This document shows, piece after piece, positions 16,293 through 25,802 of a DNA stretch of 64,000 nucleotides; position 1 is the stretch's first letter; each line of letters opens with the position of its first letter. This DNA is from Gemmatimonadota bacterium. GTDB lineage: Bacteria > Gemmatimonadota > Gemmatimonadetes > Gemmatimonadales > GWC2-71-9. The position numbers were made by a program, and so were the translations under genes. The stretch is taken from NCBI GenBank assembly GCA_003222085.1, contig QHUK01000017.1, forward strand, positions 65,928 to 129,927, read 5' to 3'. The notes under the pieces were generated by a model that was not told where the DNA came from, did not search any database, and saw only the letters and a program-made list of their open reading frames with translations.

Positions 16293-16705
16293 AAGAAAGA
16301 CGGGGGAGGACGGTGGAGGGCGGTGAAGGGCGGTGGAGGTTGGGGCGACCCTCGACCGCCTTCCACCGCCCTTCCCCGCCCTCCCATCTGCGGCGAGGAT
16401 GGCGCGTAGCCTGTGAAGTAGCGCCTGGCGCGCGCGGTCGCGTCGGCGTCCTGGCCCGCGAACACCGTGAGCAGTCGGGCGGGTCGACGCGTATGCTGCA
16501 ACGCGAGGTTCGCGGCGGGGCGCGCGTTCCGAGCGGCACATCCGCAGACCGAGTTCACGACGACGAGCGTCGTGTCCTTCGCGGTCCCCAGCACCGCCTC
16601 AACCTCTGCGGGCGTACGGAGCTCCTGGAATCCGAGGCGGGTGAGCTCCTCGCGCATCGGCTGGACGAGCCGGGGGTCGTACAGGGGGACGTTCAGGCCT
16701 GCCAT
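16289..16705 (-). CDS. Bacilliredoxin-family (DUF1094, BrxA/BrxB-like, CGC motif) protein with repeat-derived C-terminus; possibly a pseudogene
   Basis: ATG at 16705. The sequence MAGLNVPLYDPRLVQPMREELTRLGFQELRTPAEVEAVLG..TTLVVVNSVCGCAARNARPAA...TVFAGQDADATARARRYFTGYAPSSPQM matches the family up to SSPxM. The remaining 31 residues (GGRGRAVEGGRGSPQPPPPFTALHRPPPSFF) are encoded entirely by repeat copy C. Confidence 0.65.
   Translation of the reverse strand: MAGLNVPLYDPRLVQPMREELTRLGFQELRTPAEVEAVLGTAKDTTLVVVNSVCGCAARNARPAANLALQHTRRPARLLTVFAGQDADATARARRYFTGYAPSSPQMGGRGRAVEGGRGSPQPPPPFTALHRPPPSFF
16301..16385. repeat. Decamer-array inverted repeat, copy C (full hairpin)
   Basis: Left arm cgggggagga cggtggaggg cggtgaaggg cggtggaggt tgggg, loop cgaccctcg, right arm accgcc ttccaccgcc cttccccgcc ctccc. 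It sits between the convergent vWA gene stop and the bacilliredoxin-family gene, and it encodes that gene's last 31 codons. Confidence 0.75.
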
Positions 16706-16766: not shown

Positions 16767-17435
16767 ATGCGCGTGCTGATCGTCGAAGACGACCCCAACC
16801 TGGCTGGCCTGCTCCGCGACGGTCTGCGCGCGCAGCGCATCGATCCGACCCTGGCCGCGACGTTCGCCGAAGGCCGCGACCGTGCACAGGGAGGCTCGTT
16901 CGACGTGATCATTCTGGACGTGCGGCTCCCGGGGGGGACCGGCCTGGAGCTCTGCGGGGAGCTCAGGCGCGGGGGGAGCTCGACACCGGTCCTGATGCTG
17001 ACGGCACTCGATGCCCTCGACGACCGGGTGCGGGGGCTCGAGGTCGGGGCGGACGACTATCTCACGAAGCCGTTCGCGTTCCGGGAGCTCGTGGCGCGCC
17101 TCAAGGCGCTCGCGCGTCGCCGGCCCGCCCTGTCGCCGGCCCGGTACCGGATCGCCGACCTCGAGGTCGACCTCGGCACCCGCCAGGTGCATCGCCGCGG
17201 CCAGCCGATCACCCTGAGCGCGAAGGAGTTCGCGTTGCTGGAGCTGTTCGTGCTGAACCAGGGGCGGGTGCTGGATCGCTCGACCATTACCACGCACGTG
17301 TGGGACGACAATCACGACCCGTTCGCCAACGTGCTCGAGGTGCTCGTCGGGCGCTTGCGGCGCAAGATCGACGACGGCTTCGAGCCGAAGTTGATCACGA
17401 CGCTGCGCGGCGCGGGGTACCGGTTCGGCACGTGA
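16767..17435 (+). CDS. OmpR-family response regulator
   Basis: 222 aa. Receiver domain (MRVLIVEDD, DVIILDVRLPG, LTKPF) plus a winged-helix output domain (LSAKEFALLELF, LRGAGYRF). Confidence 0.9.
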   Translation: MRVLIVEDDPNLAGLLRDGLRAQRIDPTLAATFAEGRDRAQGGSFDVIILDVRLPGGTGLELCGELRRGGSSTPVLMLTALDALDDRVRGLEVGADDYLTKPFAFRELVARLKALARRRPALSPARYRIADLEVDLGTRQVHRRGQPITLSAKEFALLELFVLNQGRVLDRSTITTHVWDDNHDPFANVLEVLVGRLRRKIDDGFEPKLITTLRGAGYRFGT

Positions 17436-17446
17436 AGCGCCACGCC

Positions 17447-18712
17447 ATGAACCCGCTCGCGCGCCTGCGACTGCAGTTGACGGTGTGGTATGCCGCGGTG
17501 CTCACGCTGGTGCTCGCGCTGCTGGGCGCCGGCCTGTTTCTGACGGTCCGGCAGCAGATGTCCAGACATGTCGACAAGTCACTCGGCGCTGCGGCGGCCG
17601 CCCTCGAACAGGCGGCACGCATCCGTGAGACCGAGCGTGCGAGCGCCCACGGAGCCGTGGTCGATGCCGTGGACGAGCTGCATATCCCCGAGCGATCGCT
17701 CTACCTGCTCGACCAGGAAGGGCGCCCCATCAAGCCTGCGGGGGTCCCCGTATGGATCCGGGACGCGGCGCGGCAGGCCGTCCAGTCCCAGCACGGGTAC
17801 CGGGACCTCGATGCCCCGGACGGCCGGGAGCTCCGGATCTATGCCGAGCGGTTCACGGGGACGACCGGGGCGCCGTACATCGCCGCCGTCGTCGCCGACC
17901 GCATCGAGCTCGAGGACGAGTATGCCTCGCTGATCAAGACGTTCGGGGCCGCGGCGCTCGCGGCACTGCTCCTCGTCGCCGGGGGCGGCTACATCCTGGT
18001 CCGCAAATCTACGGCGCCGATCGAGCGGTCGATGGATCAGATGCGCCGTTTCATGGCCGACGCCGCCCATGAGCTGCGCACGCCCATCACCATTCTCCGC
18101 ACCCGCGCCGAAGTCGCCCTCGCCCAGGAGCGGGAAACGGCGCAAGACGCGGCGACGTTCCAGGCGATCGAGCGGGAGGCGGCCCGCGTGGGCGGCATTG
18201 TGGGCGATCTCCTGACCCTCGCCCGCGCGGACAGTGGCGAGCGGCCCGTCGCGCGTGAGCCGCTCTATCTCGACGACCTCGCAGCCGGTGCGGTAGACGC
18301 CGTCCGGGCGCTGGCGACGAGCAAGGGACTCACCCTGGAGGTCGGGGCGTTCGAGGAAGCCAGGATCACGGGAGACGGGGCGCTCGTCCGCCAACTGCTG
18401 CTGATCGTCCTCGACAATGCCATCAAGTTCACCCCCGCGGGCGGGCACGTCCGTCTCAACGTGTCCGTCGAGGACGGCCGGGCGGCCGTGGTCGTGAGCG
18501 ACACCGGTATCGGTATCCCGGCCGACCAGCTTCCTCACGTCTTCGAGCGCTTCTATCGCGGCGATCCGGCCCGGCGGGAGGCGGACGGAACCGGGCTCGG
18601 CCTCGCGATCGCCCGCTGGATCGCCGATGCGCACCACGCGCGCATCGACATCCGCTCCGCTCCAGGGACGGGCACTCGGGTCACCATCACGCTCCCGCTG
18701 TCGCCGGCCTAG
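17447..18712 (+). CDS. Sensor histidine kinase (two TM segments, HisKA plus HATPase_c)
   Basis: ATG at 17447 (MNPLARLRLQLTVWYAAVLTLVLALL). An in-frame GTG at 17432 that overlaps the regulator stop is an alternative start. H-box FMADAAHELRTPIT, plus LDNAIKFTP, DTGIGIP and GTGLGLAIA. Confidence 0.85.
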   Translation: MNPLARLRLQLTVWYAAVLTLVLALLGAGLFLTVRQQMSRHVDKSLGAAAAALEQAARIRETERASAHGAVVDAVDELHIPERSLYLLDQEGRPIKPAGVPVWIRDAARQAVQSQHGYRDLDAPDGRELRIYAERFTGTTGAPYIAAVVADRIELEDEYASLIKTFGAAALAALLLVAGGGYILVRKSTAPIERSMDQMRRFMADAAHELRTPITILRTRAEVALAQERETAQDAATFQAIEREAARVGGIVGDLLTLARADSGERPVAREPLYLDDLAAGAVDAVRALATSKGLTLEVGAFEEARITGDGALVRQLLLIVLDNAIKFTPAGGHVRLNVSVEDGRAAVVVSDTGIGIPADQLPHVFERFYRGDPARREADGTGLGLAIARWIADAHHARIDIRSAPGTGTRVTITLPLSPA

Positions 18713-18786
18713 AAGCAGATCGTTCGCGCCTGCGGCGCTGAGGATGACAGGCGCGTTCCCTCCGTGCGAGCGAAGGATCTGCTTCT
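18711..18786. terminator. Nested hairpin between convergent kinase and RND genes (putative bidirectional terminator)
   Basis: The outer arms AGAAGCAGATCGTTCGC (18711..18727) and GCGAAGGATCTGCTTCT (18770..18786) form 17 bp with one mismatch. The inner stem pairs GCGCCTG (18726..18732) with CAGGCGC (18748..18754). The arms touch both stop codons. There is no clear U-tract. Confidence 0.4.
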
Positions 18787-21700
18787 CACGATGCGGCCAC
18801 TACGTACCCCCTTCCCCGGATCGCGACGAGCAGCGTCGGTACGGCGAACAAGGTGATCGGCGTGGAGAGGGCGAGCCCCCCGATGACGGCCAGGGCGAGC
18901 GGGCGCTGCAGCTCGTTCCCAGCCCCGATGCCGAGGGCGAGCGGCAGCAGCCCGAACAGCGTGCACAGCGTCGTCATCAGGATCGGACGGAGGCGCACGC
19001 GTCCCGCCTCGCGGATCGCCACCTCGAGCGCCGCGCCCTCGGCCTGCATCCGGAGCCGCGTGAAATCGAGCAGGATGATCCCGTTCTTCACGATCAGCCC
19101 GACCAACAGGATCAGCCCCATGAACGAGGAGACGTTGAGCGCGGTGCGGGTGGCGAGCAGCAGGACCAAGGCGCCGACGAACGAGACGGGTGCCACGAGG
19201 AGCACGACGAGCGGCTCGGTGAACGACTCGAACTGCACCACCATCACCGCGCACACGCTCACCGCGGCGAGCGCGAGCACCAGGAGAAGGGCCCGGAACG
19301 CCTCCTGCTGGCCGGCGTACTGCCCGCCCAGCGCGACGCGCACCCCCCGGGGGGCCCGGTGTGCGGCGAGCACCCGGTGGACGTCGCCCATCACCCCACC
19401 CAGCGAGCGGCCGCTCACGTCGGCGGTCAGCGCGATCATCTGCTGCTGGTTTTCGCGATCGAGGGCGAGCCGCGACTCCGTGGGCTCGAACGCGGCGAGG
19501 CTTCCGAGCGGGGTCGCCCGGCCGCCGCGCGCCGCGACGATCGGCAGGGCCCGCAGACGCAGTGGGTCGAAGCGCACGGCATCCGGCGCCCGCACGCGCA
19601 CCGCCACGGGCCGGTCTTCGACGCGGATCTCGCCGGCCGACGTGCCCAGCAGCGCCCCGGCGACCGTGTTGCCCACGTCGACCGGTGTCAGGCCGATGCG
19701 ATCGGCCTCCGCCTGGTGGACGCGCATCAGCAACTCCGCCGCGGGCTCGCTCACCCCGTCGTAGAGGTCCTCGAGGCCGGTAATCCGCTCGAGCTCGGGC
19801 GCGAGCCGGCGCGCGTACGCCTCGAGCGTGTCGAGCGGCTCGCCATACAGCTTGATCTCGACCGGCCGCGCCGCGCCCGCGAGATCGTTGATGACGTCGG
19901 CGAGAATCTGCATGAACTCGATGTGGAGCCGCGGCACCGCGCCCTGGATCCGGTCGCGCACGTCGTCGATCACGGCGAACACGTCGCGCGCGCGCCGGTT
20001 GCGCGGCGCGAGCCGGACCACGATGTCGCCGCGGTTCTGCGCCGTGGCGAACATCCCGAGCTCGGCGCCGGTGCGGCGCGCCGTCCCCGTGACCTCGGGC
20101 GTCGCCGCGAGGAGGCTCTCCGCGACGCTCAGCTGCCGGTTCGTCTCGGCGAGCGCCGTGCCCCCCGGCGTCCAATAGTCGAGAATGAACGCCCCCTCGT
20201 CGATCTCCGGGAGGAAGCCCGTCCCTACGATCTGCCAGAGCCCGACCCCCAGCGCGACGAGCGCCACGGCGGCGACCGCGATCCGGCGGGGATGCTGCAG
20301 CGCGGCGCCGAGGGCGCGCTCGTAGCGCGGCGCCAGCGCGTCGAGCGCCTGCTCGAGCCGGGCCAGCGGGCGCCAGCGCGGCGCGGCCGCTGCCACGTCG
20401 TGCGCCGTGACGAACTGCTCGGCGAGGAGCGGGATCAGCGTGAGCGCGAGGAGCAGCGAGACGAGCACCGCCACGGTGAGGGTGGTCGCGAGCGCGGCGA
20501 AGAACTGCCCCACCACCCCCTGGAGCAGGCCGAGGGGGAGGAACACCACTACCGTGGTGATGGTCGACGTCGTGACGGGCCAGATGAGCTCTTGCACGGC
20601 GGCGCGGAGGGCGGCGAGGCGGCCGCCCGCGGCGCCGAGCCGCAGGTGGCGCGCGATGTTCTCGGTGACGACGACGGCGTCGTCGATCACGAGGCCGATC
20701 GCGATCGCCATGGCGCCCAGGGTCATCAGGTTGAACGTCTGGCCGATCAGCCACATGACGAACACGGTCACCGCGAGCGTCACCGGGATCGCCGCCGCGC
20801 TGATGGCGGTGATGCGCCCGTGGCGCAGGAACAGGAGCAGCACCAGCACGGCGAGCACGGCACCGATGAGCATGGCGTCGCGCACCGAGCGGACGGCGTC
20901 GCGTACCAGCGCGGCCTGGTCGTACACCCGCTTGAGATGGACGCCGGGCGGGAGGCTCGGCGCGAGCGCGGCGACGATTCCGGCCACGCTGTCGGCGACC
21001 TCGAGGGTGTTCCCCTCGACCTGCCGCGCGACGTTGATGAGCGCCGCGGGCTTGCCGTCGCCCGCCACGATGCGGACGTGATCCTCCGTGCCCACCTGCA
21101 CGCTCGCCACGTCCCGCACCCGCAGCCCGTGCGCGATCACCACGCCGCCGATGTCCTCGGGGCCGTGGGCCTCCTGATCGGTCACGATCAGGTACTGGCG
21201 GTAGTCCTGCGCCACGCGACCGACCGCTTGCACGGTGACGGCCCGCCGGATCGCGTCGGCCAGGTCGGCGTACGTGAGGCCCAGCGCCGCGAGCCGCGGC
21301 GGGTCTGCGACCACCTCGATTTCGCGTACGTCCGTGCCCTGGACGTCCACGCGCCCCACGCCGGGGACGCGCGAGATCAGCGGTTTGATCTCGTAGCGCG
21401 CGATGTCGTACAGGGTGGCCGGATCACCCCCCTCGAGGTTGTACGAGATGATCGGGAACAGCGACGGAGTGAGTCGCTCGATCTCGATCTCCAGGTCCGG
21501 CGGCAGCATCCCCTGGATCTGGCTCACGCGCGCGCGCACGAGCTGAAGGGCGTAGGCCATATCGGTGCGCGGCGTGAAGGTGATCGCGACCTCGCTCGCG
21601 CCGCGGATCGACTGCGACTGGACGCGCGTCACGCCCGGGACCACGCTCACCGCCTCCTCGAGCGGCCGCGTGACGCTGAAGACCACCTGGCGCGCGCCGA

Positions 21701-21860
21701 GGGTCGAGCCCTGCGCGACGATCTTGATCCGCGGGAACAGGAGCTCGGGGTAGATGGCCGACGGCAGCCGGAACGACGCCCACGCGCCCGCGACGGAGAG
21801 CAGCGCGACCGCGAGATAGACGACGCGGCGCTGACGCCGCAAGACGTCGAACAGCGTCAT
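18786..21860 (-). CDS. RND efflux transporter permease, CzcA/CusA (heavy-metal efflux)-like
   Basis: 1024 aa with the typical AcrB/CzcA architecture: two large periplasmic loops and 12 hydrophobic segments. The start overlaps the stop of the adaptor gene. Confidence 0.9.
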   Translation of the reverse strand: MTLFDVLRRQRRVVYLAVALLSVAGAWASFRLPSAIYPELLFPRIKIVAQGSTLGARQVVFSVTRPLEEAVSVVPGVTRVQSQSIRGASEVAITFTPRTDMAYALQLVRARVSQIQGMLPPDLEIEIERLTPSLFPIISYNLEGGDPATLYDIARYEIKPLISRVPGVGRVDVQGTDVREIEVVADPPRLAALGLTYADLADAIRRAVTVQAVGRVAQDYRQYLIVTDQEAHGPEDIGGVVIAHGLRVRDVASVQVGTEDHVRIVAGDGKPAALINVARQVEGNTLEVADSVAGIVAALAPSLPPGVHLKRVYDQAALVRDAVRSVRDAMLIGAVLAVLVLLLFLRHGRITAISAAAIPVTLAVTVFVMWLIGQTFNLMTLGAMAIAIGLVIDDAVVVTENIARHLRLGAAGGRLAALRAAVQELIWPVTTSTITTVVVFLPLGLLQGVVGQFFAALATTLTVAVLVSLLLALTLIPLLAEQFVTAHDVAAAAPRWRPLARLEQALDALAPRYERALGAALQHPRRIAVAAVALVALGVGLWQIVGTGFLPEIDEGAFILDYWTPGGTALAETNRQLSVAESLLAATPEVTGTARRTGAELGMFATAQNRGDIVVRLAPRNRRARDVFAVIDDVRDRIQGAVPRLHIEFMQILADVINDLAGAARPVEIKLYGEPLDTLEAYARRLAPELERITGLEDLYDGVSEPAAELLMRVHQAEADRIGLTPVDVGNTVAGALLGTSAGEIRVEDRPVAVRVRAPDAVRFDPLRLRALPIVAARGGRATPLGSLAAFEPTESRLALDRENQQQMIALTADVSGRSLGGVMGDVHRVLAAHRAPRGVRVALGGQYAGQQEAFRALLLVLALAAVSVCAVMVVQFESFTEPLVVLLVAPVSFVGALVLLLATRTALNVSSFMGLILLVGLIVKNGIILLDFTRLRMQAEGAALEVAIREAGRVRLRPILMTTLCTLFGLLPLALGIGAGNELQRPLALAVIGGLALSTPITLFAVPTLLVAIRGRGYVVAAS

Positions 21861-22939
21861 CGTGGCGCAGCGGCGGGAGCGCCGGAGCCCGGCGAGGGAG
21901 GGGGCCGCGCGACCCGCGCGCCGTCGGCGATGCCGTAGGCGCCGCCGGTCACGACCACTTCACCGGCCGCGAGCCCGCTGATGATCTCCGCCACGGCTTC
22001 GGCACGGCCGCCGACCGTGACGGCCCGGCTGTGGGCCACGCCGGCCGAGTCGACGACGAACACCTGAACGCCCTCTCCACCCGGCGCCGGCACGAGCGCG
22101 GCGACGGGGACGGTCACCGCGTGCGGCTCGACCGCGGTGATCAGTCGACCGAACACCGACTCGCCGATCCTCAAGGGGCGCTCGGTGCGCCGCAGCCGCA
22201 CGCGGACCGCGACCGCGCGGGACAGGGAATCGACGGCGGCTGCGACTCCGGTGACGACGCCCGTGCCGAGCGGGTCGCCCCGCGCGGTCTCGCCGGCCGA
22301 GAGCGACACAGAGTCCCCGTCGCGCATGTCGGCCGCTTCCGCGGGTGACACGCTGAACACGACGTCCAACGCGCCGGGGTCGGCGATCTCGACGAGCGGC
22401 TGGGTTGGGTCCACCGAGGCGCCCAGCACGGCGCTCATGCGGGTGACGACGCCCGACAGCGGGGCGCGCAGCGTGGCGAGCTGCTGCGACCGGCGCGCGG
22501 TGACCGCGGCGACCTGAGCTTGCGCCAGCTCGGAGGCCGCCTGGTCCGAGTCCTTTTGGGGCAGGATCCCCGCCTGCACGAGGCGCGCGGCGCGGGCGAA
22601 GTTGTGCTGCGCCGTCTCGAGTGCGGTAGCGGCGCTTTGGGCGGCGGCATCGAACGGCGCGCGCTCGAACTCGATCAGCGTATCGCCCTCGGCGACGTGC
22701 TGCCCCGAGGCAACGAAGATGCGCGCCACCCGGGTGGGTCCCGGGGCCGCGAGCTCCGCGAAGCGCCCGGGGCGGGGCGTCACGGTGCCGATGGCGCGCA
22801 CGACGCGGGCGAACCGCTGCTCGGTCGCCTCCGCCGTCTGCGCCGCAACGCCGGTCCGCTCCACGACCGCCTCGGCATCGTCGGCGGCGCGGGCGCGGCA
22901 GGCGGCCGCGACGGCGAGCAACGCGACCAGGCGTCTCAC
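21857..22939 (-). CDS. RND efflux periplasmic adaptor (membrane fusion protein, HlyD/CzcB family)
   Basis: 360 aa. N-terminal signal/lipobox-like LLAVAAAC, then biotinyl-lipoyl-like, coiled-coil and beta-barrel segments (VAEGDTLIEFE, LRAPLSGVVT). GTGA overlap with the OMP gene. Confidence 0.85.
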   Translation of the reverse strand: MRRLVALLAVAAACRARAADDAEAVVERTGVAAQTAEATEQRFARVVRAIGTVTPRPGRFAELAAPGPTRVARIFVASGQHVAEGDTLIEFERAPFDAAAQSAATALETAQHNFARAARLVQAGILPQKDSDQAASELAQAQVAAVTARRSQQLATLRAPLSGVVTRMSAVLGASVDPTQPLVEIADPGALDVVFSVSPAEAADMRDGDSVSLSAGETARGDPLGTGVVTGVAAAVDSLSRAVAVRVRLRRTERPLRIGESVFGRLITAVEPHAVTVPVAALVPAPGGEGVQVFVVDSAGVAHSRAVTVGGRAEAVAEIISGLAAGEVVVTGGAYGIADGARVARPPPSPGSGAPAAAPR

Positions 22940-24156
22940 GACCCGCCCGCGGAGGCCGTGACCAGGCGCACGACGCCGGCCGCGTCGTTCGCCGCCGCGA
23001 CATCGTCGATGTAGCGGCCCAGCGCCTCGCGAGCGTTGCGCTGTGCCTCGAGCACGTTGGCGAGGGGGACGGCGCCCTCGGCATACGCCTGCAAGGACAT
23101 CGCCGCGACCCGGTCGGCGCTCGCGAGCAGCCGCCGGTCGCGCTCGAGGCGCGCCCGCGCCGCCGAAAAGCTGCGACGCGCGCGGGCGACGTCCGCTGCG
23201 GATTCGCGGCGAATCACATCCAGGTTTGCCTGCGCGCGGTCGCGCGCCGCCCGCGCCTGCCCGATCTCGCCGCCGTTGCGGTTGAACAGCGGCAGCACGA
23301 GCGCCATCCCCACGGTCGGCAGCACGCCCTGGGCGGGGTCTGCGGGATCGCCGCGCTCGACGCCGACCTGGAGACTCGGCGCCGGAATCACAGTGCGATG
23401 GGCGAGGGCGAGATTCCGGTCCTCGAAGCGCAGGCTCGCCCCGGCCGCCGCGATCCGGAGCGGCTCGCCGGTGGGCGCCGGCGAGCTGTCGGGCGGCGGC
23501 ACCAGCGAGTCCGCCAGGGTGATGCTGGCCGCTTCCGCCGGGAGGCCCATGGTGAGCTGCACGGCGAGCAGCCCGTCCAGCGCGGCGAGCGAGTCGTCGA
23601 CGGCGACGTTCAGGAGCTGGCCCGCGTTCACCTCGGCGAGCCGCACGTCCAGCTCGCTGACGTCGCCGACCTCACGGCGCAGCCGGGCCATCGTGAGCAG
23701 GCTGTCGGCATCGCGCGCGTTGCGGCGCGACAGCCGCGCGTGCGCTGCCGTGGCGAGCGCGTGCGTGTAGGTGGTGTCGACGGCAAAGCGGATGGCGGCG
23801 CGCTCGAACGCGAACCCGAAGCCGGTCGCGTCGCGCGCGGCCGCCGCGGCGCCGATCCGCGCCGAGCGGAGCCACGGCAGGTCGAGTGACACATCGGCGA
23901 TGTAATGGTAGCGCGGGACATCCTTCGTGTAGGTGGCGGCGAACGACGGGTTGGGGTAGGCGCGTGCGCCGCGCAGCAGCCCGGCGGCCGCTGCCGTGTC
24001 GGCCCGGCCGAACGCGGCGCGCGCCCCGCGGGCGAGCGCCGCTTCGATCGCTGCGGCCCGCGTGACCGGGTGCTGCGCGGCGAGCGAGACCGTCGCAGCG
24101 CCGTCCAGCCCTACGACGAGGGCGGAGAGGCGCAGGAGTCGTTTCGGGAGCGACAT
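22936..24156 (-). CDS. Outer membrane efflux protein (TolC/CzcC family)
   Basis: 406 aa, signal-like N-terminus and Ala/Arg-rich two-repeat OEP architecture. First gene of the czcCBA-like operon. Confidence 0.8.
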   Translation of the reverse strand: MSLPKRLLRLSALVVGLDGAATVSLAAQHPVTRAAAIEAALARGARAAFGRADTAAAAGLLRGARAYPNPSFAATYTKDVPRYHYIADVSLDLPWLRSARIGAAAAARDATGFGFAFERAAIRFAVDTTYTHALATAAHARLSRRNARDADSLLTMARLRREVGDVSELDVRLAEVNAGQLLNVAVDDSLAALDGLLAVQLTMGLPAEAASITLADSLVPPPDSSPAPTGEPLRIAAAGASLRFEDRNLALAHRTVIPAPSLQVGVERGDPADPAQGVLPTVGMALVLPLFNRNGGEIGQARAARDRAQANLDVIRRESAADVARARRSFSAARARLERDRRLLASADRVAAMSLQAYAEGAVPLANVLEAQRNAREALGRYIDDVAAANDAAGVVRLVTASAGGS

Positions 24157-24210
24157 GGGATCCTGCGGAGAAACGTACGCGGTGAACCTGTCACCAAGCT
24201 GACAGGGCTG

Positions 24211-25638
24211 CTACATGGAGCCCAACTGGCTCTCGGTGGGCTCTGCTCAGCAAAACCACGGCTCGGTCAGCCGTGCCGCAATGGGACGGTCGGGCGGTGG
24301 GGCGCGGAACGACGTGGGCGCCACGACCCGGCCGGTCCGGGCGTTCGCGAGCGCCCGGATTCGACCGAACGTCACGGCGGGATCCTCGCCCGAGCGAGCC
24401 GCCTGCTCCACGAGCGTGCTCACGTCGCGCTGCAGCGCGTCCATGCGCGGGTCGGGATGCGTCCAGCGAAAGGTGAAGGCGCCGACGTCGAGGGGCCCAA
24501 GGAAGGGGCGGATGGCGGACCGGGACACGAGCAGCGAGCCCGGCGGAATGAGCAGGCGGATGGCGAGCTGGATGGGATCGACGTGATCGATCAACCCCTC
24601 GAGCCCGATCCACTCGAGCAGCTCGAGGTAGTCGTCGCTCGTGGCCCACGGAGTGAACGGGACGAACGACGGTCGGAGGGCGATCCCCGCCTGGCGCAGG
24701 ACGCCGAGGGCGCTCTTGACGTCGGCGCGCGTATGGCCCTTTTCCAGGTTCGCGAGCACGACATCCGACAGCGATTCCACCGCGGAGACGACGAAGACGC
24801 AGCCGGTCGCCGCAAATTCCGAGAACAACCGCCGATGGCGGACGATGTGCTCGATCTTGGCGGTGAAGTCATACGAGAGCGCCGGAAACTCCGCGTGCAT
24901 CGCCCGCACCAGCCTCACCGCGTGACCAGGGCCGTTCAGGAAGTCCGGGTCGCCGAACGTGATGTGCCCCGCTCCGGCTACCACGAGGCGCCGCACGTCC
25001 TCGAGCACGACGTCACGGGGGACGGCGAAGAAGCGGCCGCCGTACACCGGCGGGATGGGACAATGCAGACATGTGTGCAGGCAGCCGCGGCTGGCCTCGA
25101 CGTAGCCGGCCGGCACGCGCCGCCCGTCGCGCAGCAGACTCGCGTACCGCGTGAGGGCGGGCAGGCCGCCGCGCCGTGGGACGGGAAAGGACAGGCGCTC
25201 GAGGTGCGGGCGCTGGTGCGGCGCCGGCTCGTCGCCGCGGTCGAGCTGCTCGACCACCGCCACGAGCGGGCCTTCGACCTCACCACCCACCACCAGGTCG
25301 GCGCACCGACCCAGCAGGTGCTCCGCGTTGAGCTCCGCATACAGGCCGTGGAACACGATCCGGCACGCGGGATTGATCTGGCGAATGCGCGCGGCGGCGT
25401 GGACGCCGAGCCGCAGCGCCGTGTGCATCGGGACCGCGATCGCCGCCAGCCGGGCCCGCCGCACCTTCGCTTCGTCGAGCGGCTGCACCGCCAGGTCGAG
25501 GGTATCGGGGGCGAAGCCGGCCCGCTCGAGAAACGCGCGCGGCCAGGCCAGGCCGAGCGGTTGATGCCCGAGCTCATAGCACGAGACCAGCAGCACCGCG
25601 CCGGGCGCACGGAGCGAAGAACGAGCGATGGTGTTCAA
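24211..25638 (-). CDS. B12-binding-domain radical SAM protein, probable selenoprotein with CUAEP tail (TGA at 24249..24247 read as Sec)
   Basis: Radical SAM motif EASRGCLHTCLHCP (CX3CX2C) follows an N-terminal Rossmann/B12-like domain. The track ORF ends ...RLTEPWFC-TGA. The next in-frame codons are GCA GAG CCC ACC GAG AGC CAG TTG GGC TCC ATG TAG, which gives C-U-A-E-P-TESQLGSM-stop. The start was chosen as TTG at 25638 (LNTIARSS...) because third-position GC collapses upstream, where a small membrane ORF occupies another frame. Confidence 0.7.
24218..24243 (-). promoter_or_regulatory. Candidate bacterial SECIS-like hairpin just 3' of the in-frame UGA
   Basis: The minus strand reads UGA GCA then GAGCCCA-CCGAGAGCCAGU-UGGGCUC. 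This is a perfect 7-bp stem starting 4 nt after the UGA, with a 12-nt G-containing loop. Confidence 0.35.
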
Positions 25639-25793
25639 GACTCTGCGAACCGCAGCAGGAAGGCGACGCCCATCAGTGCCACGGCAACCCACACCAGCCA
25701 GCGTTCCGCGATCGCCATGCCCACGAGACCCACCGTGAGGCCTGCGCCGCCGAGCCATGCTTTGATTGCGAACAGACGGTAGGGGCGCGGCAT
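25635..25793 (-). CDS. Small (52 aa) two-helix membrane protein, not in ORF track
   Basis: ATG at 25793: MPRPYRLFAIKAWLGGAGLTVGLVGMAIAERWLVWVAVALMGVAFLLRFAES-TGA. This frame has high G/C at third positions. The overlapping upstream extension of the radical SAM ORF is T-rich at third positions and Arg/Gly-rich. Its stop overlaps the proposed TTG start of the radical SAM gene. Confidence 0.5.
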   Translation of the reverse strand: MPRPYRLFAIKAWLGGAGLTVGLVGMAIAERWLVWVAVALMGVAFLLRFAES

Positions 25794-25802
25794 GCGACAC
25801 TC

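What the first reader, a model, noticed from the sequence alone, without database searches (positions are those of the whole stretch)
24211..25638. The radical SAM ORF stops at a TGA that reads C-U-A-E-P, so it is a probable selenoprotein truncated by standard ORF calling
The ORF track ends this B12-domain radical SAM protein at ...RLTEPWFC followed by TGA (24249..24247).
- **Downstream reading.** Continuing in frame gives GCA GAG CCC ACC GAG AGC CAG TTG GGC TCC ATG TAG. The C-terminus would therefore be Cys-Sec-Ala-Glu-Pro followed by eight more residues.
- **Family match.** From memory, curated databases describe a radical SAM family named for exactly this tail (CUAEP/CCAEP-tail radical SAM (seleno)protein), where U or C follows a Cys. 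I cannot verify the family assignment here.
- **Hairpin.** A perfect 7-bp hairpin (GAGCCCA-N12-UGGGCUC) begins 4 nt after the UGA, the position expected for a bacterial SECIS element.
- **Missing machinery.** No selA, selB, selD or tRNA-Sec gene lies in this window.
The substrate and role of this family are, as far as I know, unknown. Here the gene is the last member of a long acyl-CoA metabolism array and sits directly upstream of a metal-efflux operon.
Basis: partly seen in the sequence, partly recalled or inferred. Interest (0 to 1): 0.72.

Follow-up and report, generated by a model that had tools for sequence, protein, structure and literature searches.

The report
Selenocysteine-tailed radical SAM enzyme gene
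The gene does not stop at its first TGA: that codon almost certainly inserts selenocysteine, giving a 475-residue enzyme of a curated but uncharacterised family.

Summary
On the minus strand, a radical SAM gene (TTG start 25638) reaches an in-frame TGA at 24249..24247 after ...EPWFC. It continues AEPTESQLGSM to a TAG at 24213..24211.

- **Family.** The read-through protein matches NCBIfam NF040546, "CUAEP/CCAEP-tail radical SAM (seleno)protein", at 686.5 bits (cut-off 500), over the whole profile including the tail.
- **Homologues.** In 154 genes from more than 12 phyla, the aligned codon is TGA in 112 and TGC/TGT in 42. AEPT..Q after it is conserved in both groups.
- **SECIS.** Sec forms carry a covarying hairpin 16-34 nt after the U of UGA, with apical loop A-G-U-U. 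Cys forms do not. In the window it is a nested 5-bp stem (24232..24218) sharing the same 3' arm.
- **What remains open.** Sec machinery is absent from the window, and the source genome could not be found.
- **Function (inferred).** The closest characterised relative is ArsL, whose Cys-rich C-terminal tail binds arsenite. Recurrent neighbours elsewhere are an L-amino-acid-ligase-type ATP-grasp enzyme, YggX/Nfu, DUF169 and peptide transporters.
- **Efflux genes.** The downstream RND genes look like a lineage-specific insertion and are not demonstrably metal-specific.

Verdict: a new member of a known, uncharacterised family.

The parts
24211..25638 (-). Full selenoprotein coding sequence: TTG start, 463 codons, UGA (Sec464), 11 tail codons, TAG. 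The product is 475 aa.
   Evidence: Translation. NF040546 at 686.5 bits over profile positions 1-467 of 468. The TTG start is supported by LRAPGA conserved upstream of the profile start in close homologues, and by the 4-nt overlap with the upstream small ORF, as in L086 and L089.
24247..24249 (-). In-frame UGA read as selenocysteine (residue 464), directly after Cys463.
   Evidence: The aligned codon is TGA in 112 and TGC/TGT in 42 of 154 family genes.
24214..24246 (-). Translated tail AEPTESQLGSM.
   Evidence: AEPT..Q is conserved after both Sec and Cys, with synonymous third-position changes among close relatives. This tail is 8 residues shorter than in L001, L086, L088 and L089.
24218..24232 (-). 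Family-register SECIS core: stem GAGCC (24232..24228), loop AGUUG (24227..24223), stem GGCUC (24222..24218).
   Evidence: Covariation in Sec forms: 86% of cells paired, 43 double changes, 0 of 500 shuffles reach this; 4-nt-loop class 93% paired. Absent in Cys forms, 43% paired. A covariance model built without the window hits only 24237..24214, at 28.4 bits and E=5.5e-5.
24218..24243 (-). It competes with the SECIS core for the same 3' arm.
   Evidence: It is the minimum-energy fold in the window, -11.1 versus -7.9 kcal/mol. Across the family it shows no covariation: 73.4% paired against 73.1% in shuffles. It is perfect in only 3 of 58 Sec genes.
25060..25083 (-). Radical SAM cluster motif C186-x3-C190-x2-C193 (CLHTCLHC).
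   Evidence: Sequence. Invariant in the family alignment and shared with ArsL. Pfam PF04055 at 41.5 bits.
25255..25593 (-). N-terminal Rossmann-type 'B12-binding-like' domain (residues 16-128).
   Evidence: PF02310 scores 31.0 bits, just under its 32.1 cut-off. The fold model matches AprD4, OxsB, TsrM and MgmA.
25635..25793 (-). 52-aa predicted membrane protein whose stop overlaps the radical SAM start codon (TTGA).
   Evidence: Conserved at 62-73% identity in L001, L006 and L066. Called as a 54-58-aa gene in L085, L086 and L089. No Pfam or NCBIfam match.

Best explanation
**Shown by comparison.** This is a genuine selenoprotein gene of the curated family NF040546 (CUAEP/CCAEP-tail radical SAM (seleno)protein).

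**Recoding (standard bacterial mechanism, inferred here).** During translation the UGA at 24249..24247 is not read as stop. A SECIS stem-loop lies in the mRNA 16-34 nt downstream, and that stretch also encodes residues T-E-S-Q-L-G-S. The stem-loop recruits SelB-GTP-Sec-tRNA(Sec), so the ribosome inserts selenocysteine. It then continues 11 more codons to the TAG. The product is 475 aa and ends ...EPWF-Cys463-Sec464-AEPTESQLGSM.

**Enzyme function (inferred, roughly 0.3-0.4 likely).**
- The protein has a [4Fe-4S]/SAM core behind a Rossmann-type N-domain.
- It has a disordered C-terminal arm whose Cys-Sec pair sits where the closest characterised relative, ArsL, carries its arsenite-binding Cys-Cys-x-x-Cys tail.
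- I propose that the arm holds a soft heteroatom substrate, a metalloid or a chalcogen such as Se or S. It would deliver that substrate to the cluster-bound SAM for ArsL-type transfer of the 3-amino-3-carboxypropyl group, making an unusual amino acid.
- In most other lineages that amino acid would pass to a neighbouring L-amino-acid-ligase-type ATP-grasp enzyme and a peptide or amino-acid transporter.
- The neighbouring YggX and Nfu proteins would keep the oxygen-sensitive cluster supplied in these mostly aerobic bacteria.
For: **Family.** NF040546 is matched at 686.5 bits against a cut-off of 500, with tail positions included.

**Sec/Cys alternation with a conserved tail.** 58 TGA versus 17 TGY among the window plus 74 species genomes. 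54 versus 25 in a second set of 79. Synonymous changes occur in tail codons among close relatives.

**SECIS.**
- Hairpin with compensatory changes: 5 of 7 pairs change on both sides, 43 cells, 0 of 500 shuffles reach this, and register slides collapse pairing to 58% or less. A second loop class is 93% paired.
- Cys forms are 43% paired, the same as shuffles.
- Mean stem is 6.2 bp in Sec forms versus 3.8 bp in Cys forms, and 5.4 versus 3.3 in the second set.
- The 14 short cases in the second set are the same hairpin with one internal mismatch.
- A covariance model built without the window hits only the expected site.
- The invariant G24 lies at almost the same distance from the UGA as G23-U24 of the E. 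coli fdhF SECIS (my knowledge; fold).

**No global recoding.** TGA is the ordinary stop of 32 of 44 other genes in the window.

**Function.**
- ArsL (NF040542) is the second-best family at 286.7 bits, with the next at 43 bits or less. Identity to plasmid ArsL genes is 34% over about 395 aa.
- The ArsL tail binds As(III) and is needed for C-As bond formation (bioRxiv 10.1101/2024.02.01.577332 and 10.64898/2026.04.29.721666).
- MAFFT places the ArsL C-C on C-U.
- Residues 443-463 have pLDDT below 50, consistent with a flexible arm.
- tblastn neighbour counts (74 first-set and 80 second-set loci): ATP-grasp 33 and 50, YggX 10 and 41, NifU-domain 29 and 15, DUF169 19 and 11. ORF clustering found a POT transporter in 10 second-set loci. 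Family names come from Pfam on representatives.
- One metagenomic protein fuses the CCAEP enzyme to a MerB carbon-mercury lyase domain. Actinomadura sp. 9N215 has a MerB-like gene about 2 kb away.
Against: - No selA, selB, selD or tRNA-Sec lies in the 64-kb window. The source genome is not in the genome collection, so Sec competence of this organism is untested.
- In the window the family-register stem is only 5 bp. The competing 7-bp hairpin is predicted to dominate (pair probability about 0.97 versus 0.001).
- The tail is 8 residues shorter than in most Gemmatimonadales relatives.
- For function, none of the recurrent partner genes is in the window.
- Contexts differ widely between lineages.
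- No ars genes accompany the family.
- The tail has two, not three, thiol/selenol ligands.
- The ArsL profile alignment stops before the tail, so the C-C/C-U equivalence is positional and not statistically supported.
- There is no biochemical evidence for any member.
Confidence: 0.8

Rival explanations
1. The UGA really terminates translation in this organism. The protein ends at Cys463, and the downstream AEP... is a relic, for example in a lineage that has lost Sec insertion.
For: No Sec machinery lies in the window. The family-register stem is weakened to 5 bp, and the tail is shortened compared with relatives. RefSeq itself ends the T. roseum homologue at the TGA.
Against: TGA, tail and hairpin are all retained in the 95%-identical L085 and in every close relative examined. 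Lineages without Sec typically carry TGC/TGT instead, as do all 11 Nitrospirota genes. The covariance model still scores the site at 28.4 bits. Machinery genes are rarely linked to their client genes, so their absence from 64 kb says little.
Confidence: 0.08
2. In this Gemmatimonadales sub-lineage, the functional SECIS is the first reader's longer hairpin (24243..24218 and its extensions) rather than the nested family hairpin.
For: It is the predicted minimum-energy fold in the window and in L001 and L006. Its 12-nt loop still presents the G-U-U bases. It exists because the T-E-S-Q codons (GAG AGC C) duplicate the GAGCC of A-E-P.
Against: It shows no covariation across the family: 73.4% paired against 73.1% in shuffles, and pair 8-31 forms in only 9 of 37. 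It is perfect in 3 of 58. Most phyla cannot form it yet keep Sec. An apical helix directly under the G-U loop is the part SelB binds in E. coli (my knowledge).
Confidence: 0.2
3. The Cys-Sec tail is a redox-active selenenylsulfide arm, as in the Gly-Cys-Sec-Gly tail of mammalian thioredoxin reductase, or a hydrogen-atom donor. The enzyme would do conventional 5'-deoxyadenosyl radical chemistry on an organic substrate, not ArsL-type heteroatom alkylation.
For: The tail is disordered. A bacilliredoxin-type CGC thiol-disulfide oxidoreductase gene lies directly downstream in L086, L066 and L059, with a remnant in the window. The tail has only two chalcogen ligands, and no ars genes are nearby. The best fold match, AprD4, and most of the other top matches use the 5'-dA radical.
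Against: The nearest characterised homologue by far is ArsL. [quoted passage not shown] The MerB fusion and the MerB neighbour point to carbon-metal chemistry. A reductase partner would also be needed simply to keep a metal-binding tail reduced.
Confidence: 0.3
4. The enzyme works together with the downstream OEP-MFP-RND pump and the heavy-metal-type two-component system, as a metal-handling module.
For: The genes are adjacent on the same strand with a 54-nt gap. The arrangement recurs in L001, L006 and L089. The response regulator's best match is the CztR/SilR/CopR subfamily, at 217 bits and below cut-off.
Against: The arrangement is seen only in relatives at 75% protein identity or more. In L086, L066 and L059 a bacilliredoxin gene follows the radical SAM gene directly. 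In the window a truncated copy of that gene sits at 16705..16382, just beyond the pump and regulator block, which indicates a ~7.4-kb insertion. The permease scores higher against a multidrug model than against CusA/CzcA. No RND genes are seen in the other phyla.
Confidence: 0.05

Closest known systems
NCBIfam NF040546, CUAEP/CCAEP-tail radical SAM (seleno)protein
   Same: The full-length profile is matched above cut-off. It has the same C-U-A-E-P tail, the same CxxxCxxC core and the same N-terminal Rossmann-type domain. This gene is a member.
   Different: The tail after AEPTESQLGS is shorter than in most Gemmatimonadales members. The gene neighbourhood lacks the ATP-grasp, YggX, Nfu and DUF169 partners common elsewhere. 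No member of the family has been characterised.
ArsL (NF040542, RCCLKC-tail radical SAM protein; arsinothricin biosynthesis)
   Same: It is homologous over about 400 residues (34% identity, 286.7 bits). It shares the domain order and has a short Cys-rich C-terminal tail with an adjacent chalcogen pair. ATP-grasp, GNAT and transporter genes occur near both families.
   Different: The score is below the ArsL cut-off of 450. The tail is F-C-U-A-E-P rather than R-C-C-L-K-C, with two ligands rather than three. An extra linker of about 45 residues precedes the tail. No ars genes are nearby. Family-specific invariant residues differ (PMHT, His192, His302).
Other CU-motif selenoproteins (HgcA variants, MerB-like SAO proteins, MerT variants) and the Gly-Cys-Sec-Gly tail of thioredoxin reductase
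   Same: All have an adjacent Cys-Sec pair. In thioredoxin reductase it also sits on a flexible C-terminal arm.
   Different: The folds are unrelated. Those proteins bind mercury or carry out redox relay. What the pair does here is unknown.
Class-B-like radical SAM enzymes with solved structures (AprD4, OxsB, TsrM, MgmA)
   Same: The predicted fold is a Rossmann-type N-domain plus a radical SAM barrel (Foldseek E=7.5e-16 to 1.5e-12).
   Different: Sequence identity is only 15-19%. Cobalamin use is not established here. AprD4, the best match, is B12-independent (my knowledge), and cobalamin is not mentioned in the first in vitro ArsL study. None of these has a Cys-Sec tail.
E. coli fdhF-type bacterial SECIS
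   Same: Both are stem-loops inside the coding sequence just after the UGA. A conserved G-U in the apical loop lies about 23-25 nt from the U of UGA.
   Different: The stem is shorter (5-8 bp) and the loop is A-G-U-U(N). No bulged U is evident. Rfam has no matching model.

Membership tests
NF040546 CUAEP/CCAEP-tail radical SAM (seleno)protein | Whole-protein score at or above the curated cut-off (500 bits) | tested here: met
   686.5 bits, E=1.6e-206, profile positions 1-467 of 468.
NF040546 CUAEP/CCAEP-tail radical SAM (seleno)protein | C-terminal Cys-(Sec/Cys)-Ala-Glu-Pro motif | tested here: met
   ...EPWF-C-[TGA]-A-E-P-T. The same motif occurs in the 153 homologues examined, with Ala replaced by Ser in a minority.
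NF040546 CUAEP/CCAEP-tail radical SAM (seleno)protein | Radical SAM CxxxCxxC cluster motif | tested here: met
   C186, C190 and C193. PF04055 at 41.5 bits against a cut-off of 29.5.
NF040546 CUAEP/CCAEP-tail radical SAM (seleno)protein | N-terminal B12-binding-type domain | tested here: inconclusive
   PF02310 at 31.0 bits against a cut-off of 32.1. The fold model resembles the Rossmann N-domains of AprD4, OxsB and TsrM. Cobalamin binding itself was not tested.
Bacterial selenoprotein (SelB/SECIS-dependent UGA recoding) | In-frame UGA aligned with Cys in homologues | tested here: met
   112 TGA and 42 TGC/TGT at the same codon.
Bacterial selenoprotein (SelB/SECIS-dependent UGA recoding) | Protein-level conservation downstream of the UGA | tested here: met
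   AEPT..Q is conserved in both Sec and Cys forms. Synonymous third-position changes occur among close relatives.
Bacterial selenoprotein (SelB/SECIS-dependent UGA recoding) | SECIS stem-loop at the proper distance, supported by covariation | tested here: met
   Family level. Window: covariance-model hit at 28.4 bits, E=5.5e-5, the only site in 128 kb searched. The stem is only 5 bp, and a competing fold is more stable.
Bacterial selenoprotein (SelB/SECIS-dependent UGA recoding) | selA, selB, selC (tRNA-Sec) and selD present in the genome | not testable with these tools
   Absent from the window. An exact-match search did not find the genome. selD lies within 3 kb of the homologue in only two Blastocatellia loci.
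Bacterial selenoprotein (SelB/SECIS-dependent UGA recoding) | Selenium actually incorporated | not testable with these tools
   This needs 75Se labelling or mass spectrometry.
NF040542 ArsL (RCCLKC-tail radical SAM, arsinothricin biosynthesis) | Score at or above the cut-off (450 bits) | tested here: not met
   286.7 bits, with the alignment stopping at residue 412 before the tail.
NF040542 ArsL (RCCLKC-tail radical SAM, arsinothricin biosynthesis) | R-C-C-L-K-C tail with three As(III)-binding cysteines | tested here: not met
   The tail is F-C-U-A-E-P, and the third position is Pro.
NF040542 ArsL (RCCLKC-tail radical SAM, arsinothricin biosynthesis) | Location in an ars/arsQML gene cluster | tested here: not met
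   No ars genes appear among the recurrent neighbours of the 153 clustered loci. By contrast, the B. cereus plasmid ArsL locus has ArsR, Acr3, ArsC, ArsD and ArsA.
NF040542 ArsL (RCCLKC-tail radical SAM, arsinothricin biosynthesis) | Cleaves SAM to methylthioadenosine plus a 3-amino-3-carboxypropyl species | not testable with these tools
   This is a biochemical assay. It is the key test of whether the enzyme works like ArsL.

The most novel reading that the evidence does not exclude
CUAEP/CCAEP-tail enzymes are a widespread second branch of ArsL-type non-canonical radical SAM chemistry. Using the Cys-Sec (or Cys-Cys) arm as the substrate holder, they would attach the 3-amino-3-carboxypropyl group of SAM to a soft heteroatom other than arsenic, such as selenium, sulfur, antimony or mercury. 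With the co-located L-amino-acid ligase and peptide transporter, they would make an undiscovered heteroatom-containing amino acid or dipeptide in soil Acidobacteriota, Gemmatimonadota, Methylomirabilota (Rokubacteria), Chloroflexota, Planctomycetota and others.
Probability: 0.2. Interest if true: 0.8.

Novelty: new member of a known kind. Interest (0 to 1): 0.35.

Why it matters
**Annotation.** Standard ORF calling truncates this protein at its catalytically suggestive residue. Even RefSeq ends the Thermomicrobium roseum homologue at the TGA. Nearly all of the 120 closest database proteins stop at the Cys before the Sec codon.

**Biology.**
- The family is large: 496 clusters at 50% identity with E<=1e-30, a count that may include the ArsL branch.
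- It is about 73% selenoprotein in the species genomes sampled.
- It spans more than 12 phyla of mostly aerobic soil and water bacteria.
- Its only characterised relative makes a carbon-arsenic bond by unusual SAM chemistry.

**What this work adds.** The conserved SECIS is now defined. A recurrent partner set is described: ATP-grasp ligase, YggX/Nfu, DUF169 and peptide transporters. There is also a MerB fusion lead. Together these make the family's function experimentally approachable. Cultured carriers are available (T. roseum DSM 5159, Thermalbibacter longus CFH 74404, Actinomadura sp. 9N215).

Tried and rejected
- **Rfam.** Nothing was found at gathering thresholds over the window, nor at E<=10 over 24100..24350, apart from a chance miRNA hit. 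Bacterial SECIS elements are not covered.
- **Terminator-like hairpin before the UGA.** The one at 24275..24257 is not conserved in the family, with a median of 2 bp or fewer paired in register. It is a by-product of the R-L-T-E-P codons.
- **Other selenoprotein genes in the window.** A scan for TGA joining two high-GC3 pieces returned only antisense shadows.
- **Source genome.** An exact 54-mer search of the species-genome collection found nothing, so the Sec machinery could not be checked.
- **SelD on plasmids.** Searching with E. coli SelD did not show the T. roseum megaplasmid among the records listed.
- **tRNA-Sec near homologues.** None was found in the 60 loci scanned.
- **ATP-grasp comparison.** The genes next to ArsL and next to this family share only generic similarity (28% identity). 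This is not evidence for a shared pathway.
- **Covariance model on the second locus set.** It also hit 6 of 25 Cys-form genes at lower scores. It therefore partly reads conserved coding sequence, and I rely on pair counts instead.
- **'Metal-efflux' label.** Not supported.
- **DUF169 literature.** It gave only loose hints: a gene near a Nitrospina HgcA-like gene, and a listing in a selenium comparative-genomics table.
Full report
**1. The observation.**
- Read on the minus strand, the region is ...CTG ACC GAG CCG TGG TTT TGC TGA GCA GAG CCC ACC GAG AGC CAG TTG GGC TCC ATG TAG.
- The mechanical ORF list ends the gene at the TGA (24247..25800).
- The likely start is the TTG at 25638. It overlaps by 4 nt (TTGA) the stop of a 52-codon upstream ORF. 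Close homologues have the same arrangement, and their N-terminal LRAPGA residues are conserved.
- The product is therefore 463 residues, then Sec464, then 11 residues: 475 aa in all.
- The window (70% G+C) has no tRNA gene and no Rfam match. It has no tblastn match to E. coli SelA, SelB or SelD.

**2. Is it more than chance?** The open frame after the TGA means nothing by itself.
- TGA ends 32 of 44 other genes in the window.
- 84% of those have at least 11 open codons after it.

The weight comes from homology. With Sec written as Cys, the read-through protein matches NCBIfam NF040546 at 686.5 bits (cut-off 500), over profile positions 1-467 of 468. That family is named 'CUAEP/CCAEP-tail radical SAM (seleno)protein' and is typed as an equivalog. 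Pfam finds Radical_SAM and a borderline B12-binding domain.

**3. Comparative test of recoding.** I fetched 80 homologous loci from species-representative genomes, and a further 80 with a more distant family member as query.
- At the aligned codon, 58 of 75 genes (the window included) have TGA and 17 have TGC/TGT.
- In the second set, 54 have TGA and 25 have TGC/TGT. The total is 112 Sec against 42 Cys.
- Both forms continue A/S-E-P-T-x-x-Q-(L/F/V).
- Sec forms occur in Gemmatimonadota, Methylomirabilota (Rokubacteria), Planctomycetota, Acidobacteriota, Chloroflexota, Latescibacterota, Poribacteria, SAR324 and others.
- All 11 Nitrospirota genes, and most of the genes labelled Alphaproteobacteria or Gammaproteobacteria, are Cys forms.
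- Among the window's closest relatives (L085, L001, L006, L089, L086, L088), the TGA is always kept. The tail codons differ by synonymous third-position changes (GCA/GCG, CCC/CCG, ACC/ACG).
- The closest database proteins almost all end at the Cys, with 97% query coverage. They are truncated by gene callers.
- The RefSeq CDS of Thermomicrobium roseum DSM 5159 (TRD_RS12835) is named for this family, yet it too stops at the TGA.

**4. The SECIS element.** Counting from the U of UGA as position 1:
- Sec-form genes share a hairpin with stem positions 16/17-22 paired to 28-33/34 and loop A23-G24-U25-U26-N27. A second class has a 4-nt AGUU loop.
- On 37 Sec sequences in the 5-nt-loop register, 86% of cells pair and 5 of 7 pairs change on both sides (43 cells). 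None of 500 shuffles reaches the observed pairing, double-change cell count or covariation score, and sliding the register drops pairing to 58% or less.
- The 4-nt-loop class (16 sequences) is 93% paired.
- The 17 Cys-form sequences are 43% paired, the same as shuffles.
- The mean best stem is 6.2 bp in Sec forms against 3.8 bp in Cys forms. In the second locus set it is 5.4 against 3.3. The 14 short cases there are the same hairpin with one internal A-C mismatch.
- A covariance model of positions 13-36, built without the window, finds one site in the window on either strand. That site is 24237..24214, at 28.4 bits and E=5.5e-5; the next best hit has E=0.78.
- The model also reads conserved coding sequence. 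It hits 6 of 25 Cys forms at lower scores, against 40 of 54 Sec forms. The pair counts are therefore the stronger evidence.
- From my own knowledge of the E. coli fdhF SECIS, the loop bases bound by SelB are G23 and U24 counted the same way. The spacing here is therefore canonical.

GAGCCCA-N12-UGGGCUC (positions 7-13 with 26-32; 24243..24237 with 24224..24218) exists. It is the predicted minimum-energy fold, at -11.1 kcal/mol against -7.9 for the family stem, with a pair probability of about 0.97. Across the family, however:
- pairing in that register equals the shuffled expectation (73.4% against 73.1%);
- pair 8-31 forms in only 9 of 37;
- the hairpin is perfect in 3 of 58.

It arises in this sub-lineage because the T-E-S-Q codons (GAG AGC C) repeat the GAGCC of A-E-P. 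The 3' arm GGCUC can therefore pair with either copy. In the window the family-register stem is only 5 bp: GAGCC 24232..24228, loop AGUUG, GGCUC 24222..24218. I take the nested hairpin to be the SECIS core, but I cannot exclude that the longer fold is used here.

**6. What is known.**
- The family is curated. [quoted passage not shown]
- A 2026 review of prokaryotic selenoproteomes does not mention it in its main text (PMC13188914).
- No member has been characterised.
- The second-best family is ArsL (NF040542, 'RCCLKC-tail'), at 286.7 bits and below its cut-off of 450. The next families score 43 bits or less.
- ArsL cleaves SAM to methylthioadenosine and a 3-amino-3-carboxypropyl species, and forms the C-As bond of arsinothricin. 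Its C-terminal CCxxC tail binds As(III) and is essential for that step (10.1101/2024.02.01.577332 and 10.64898/2026.04.29.721666).

**7. The protein.**
- Family-invariant features include C186-x3-C190-x-H192-C193, PMHT (residues 70-73), GDPDF (229-233), H225, H302, R361, W392 and E-P/S/A-W-F/Y-C-U-A-E-P.
- Two further cysteines, C20 and C280, are each 88% conserved (renumbered to the TTG start).
- MAFFT places the ArsL R-C-C-L-K-C on F-C-U-A-E-P. The ArsL profile alignment stops at residue 412, so this equivalence is positional only.
- An AlphaFold model of residues 1-463 has mean pLDDT 80. Residues 443-463 fall below 50, consistent with a flexible arm.
- Its best PDB fold matches are AprD4, OxsB, TsrM, MgmA, MiaB and TokK. 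A sequence search of PDB gave only weak hits, so no ArsL-like structure is available.

**8. Gene context in the window's lineage.**
- The upstream array is carboxyltransferase, S8 peptidase, AtuA, AtuA-ferredoxin, enoyl-CoA hydratase, the small membrane ORF and then the radical SAM gene. It is shared by Gemmatimonadales relatives (L001, L006, L066, L085, L086, L089).
- The downstream OEP-MFP-RND genes are shared only by L001, L006 and L089.
- In L086, L066 and L059 a bacilliredoxin-type gene (PF06491, CGC motif) follows directly.
- In the window the first 108 codons of that gene (89% identical) lie at 16705..16382, just beyond the pump and the two-component genes. Its last ~37 codons are replaced by unrelated sequence.
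- The pump and regulator block (16767..24156, about 7.4 kb) therefore looks like an insertion between the two genes.
- The permease scores 618 bits against a multidrug RND model and 475 against CusA/CzcA, both below cut-off.

I therefore reject a functional link to metal efflux.

**9. Gene context across the family.** Counts for the first four partners come from tblastn with one representative protein of each against all loci (74 first-set loci with a recognisable tail; 80 second-set loci). Family names come from Pfam on those representatives. Transporter counts come from ORF clustering.

| Partner gene | First set (74 loci) | Second set (80 loci) |
|---|---|---|
| ATP-grasp enzyme with L-amino-acid-ligase domains (ATP-grasp_4, LAL_C2, ATPgrasp_N) | 33 | 50, mostly 75-700 nt downstream |
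| YggX-type Fe(2+)-trafficking protein | 10 | 41 |
| NifU-domain protein (Nfu/NfuA) | 29 | 15 |
| DUF169 | 19 | 11 |
| POT-family peptide transporter | not seen | 10 |
| Atg22-like MFS transporter | 7 | not seen |

- In the second set, 59 of the 79 loci with a recognisable tail have at least one of the first four partners.
- None of these partners is in the window.
- T. roseum has an MFS transporter, a PLP aminotransferase and a GNAT gene nearby.
- One metagenomic protein (P0140, 695 aa) is a Cys-form enzyme fused to a MerB alkylmercury-lyase domain (PF03243, 54.7 bits). A second MerB gene lies on the same 8-kb contig.
- The fusion was not found in species genomes. However, Actinomadura sp. 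9N215 (L093, a Cys form) has a MerB-like gene about 2 kb from the enzyme gene.
- No ars genes recur.

**10. Most likely mechanism.**
- Recoding is well supported by comparison (about 0.85-0.9). The untested steps are the presence of selABCD in this organism and the actual incorporation of selenium.
- For enzyme function I commit, at roughly 0.3-0.4, to an ArsL-like scheme. The flexible Cys-Sec arm binds a soft heteroatom substrate and brings it to the cluster-bound SAM for 3-amino-3-carboxypropyl transfer.
- The resulting amino acid would be ligated by the ATP-grasp enzyme and transported. YggX and Nfu would service the oxygen-labile cluster.
- The main rival (about 0.3) is a redox-active selenenylsulfide arm or hydrogen-atom donor serving conventional 5'-deoxyadenosyl chemistry. 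The adjacent bacilliredoxin gene in some Gemmatimonadales would fit that.

**11. Verdict.** The finding is correct and well observed, but it rediscovers a curated family. It is a new member of a known, uncharacterised kind. Beyond confirming it, this work adds:
- the defined SECIS;
- the correction of which hairpin is conserved;
- the evidence that the efflux genes are an insertion;
- the recurrent partner set;
- the MerB fusion lead.

Noticed in passing
window 16382..16705 (-), with 16767..24156: The first 108 codons of a bacilliredoxin-type gene (PF06491, CGC motif) are 89% identical to the gene that directly follows the radical SAM gene in L086, L066 and L059. Its last ~37 codons are replaced by unrelated sequence. 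The OEP-MFP-RND genes and the histidine kinase/response regulator pair between it and the radical SAM gene look like a ~7.4-kb insertion.
   Followed up: partly
window 25635..25793 (-): A 52-codon ORF encodes a predicted membrane protein. Its stop overlaps the radical SAM TTG start (TTGA). It is conserved in Gemmatimonadales relatives and has no family match.
   Followed up: partly
L081 10369..10371 (NC_011961.1, Thermomicrobium roseum DSM 5159 megaplasmid, TRD_RS12835): [quoted passage not shown] AEPLEDPSGP and a GGACCCGUCGGGUCC hairpin follow. This is a truncated selenoprotein annotation in a cultured aerobe.
   Followed up: yes
protein P0140 (JGI metagenome 3300047160, 8.3-kb contig); L093 3402..3788 (Actinomadura sp. 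9N215): A Cys-form family member is fused at its C-terminus to a MerB alkylmercury-lyase domain, and a second MerB gene lies 3.7 kb away. A MerB-like gene sits about 2 kb from the family gene in Actinomadura. The link to carbon-metal bond chemistry is rare but suggestive.
   Followed up: partly
window 24214..24222 versus L001, L086, L088, L089: In the window and in the 95%-identical L085, the tail ends ...GSM-TAG. Relatives continue ...GSV-(E/Q)-(R/P)-(E/D)-A-(A/G)-G-W-R. The last 8 residues have been lost in this sub-lineage (GTG to ATG, GAG to TAG).
   Followed up: yes
window 24187..24206 (-): A 7-bp hairpin CCTGTCA-GCTTGG-TGACAGG lies immediately after the true TAG stop, in the 54-nt gap before the OEP gene. 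It has no T-run. It is also present in L085, which is too close a relative to be informative.
   Followed up: no
L024 3299..4216; L079 1966..2991: A selD homologue lies within about 3 kb of the family gene in two Blastocatellia loci. One of them (L024) is a Cys form.
   Followed up: no
L044, L030, L027, L163 (record titles): Some loci carrying this bacterial gene come from bins labelled Nitrosotalea (an archaeon), Clostridia, Enterobacteriaceae or Patescibacteria. These contigs are probably mis-binned.
   Followed up: no
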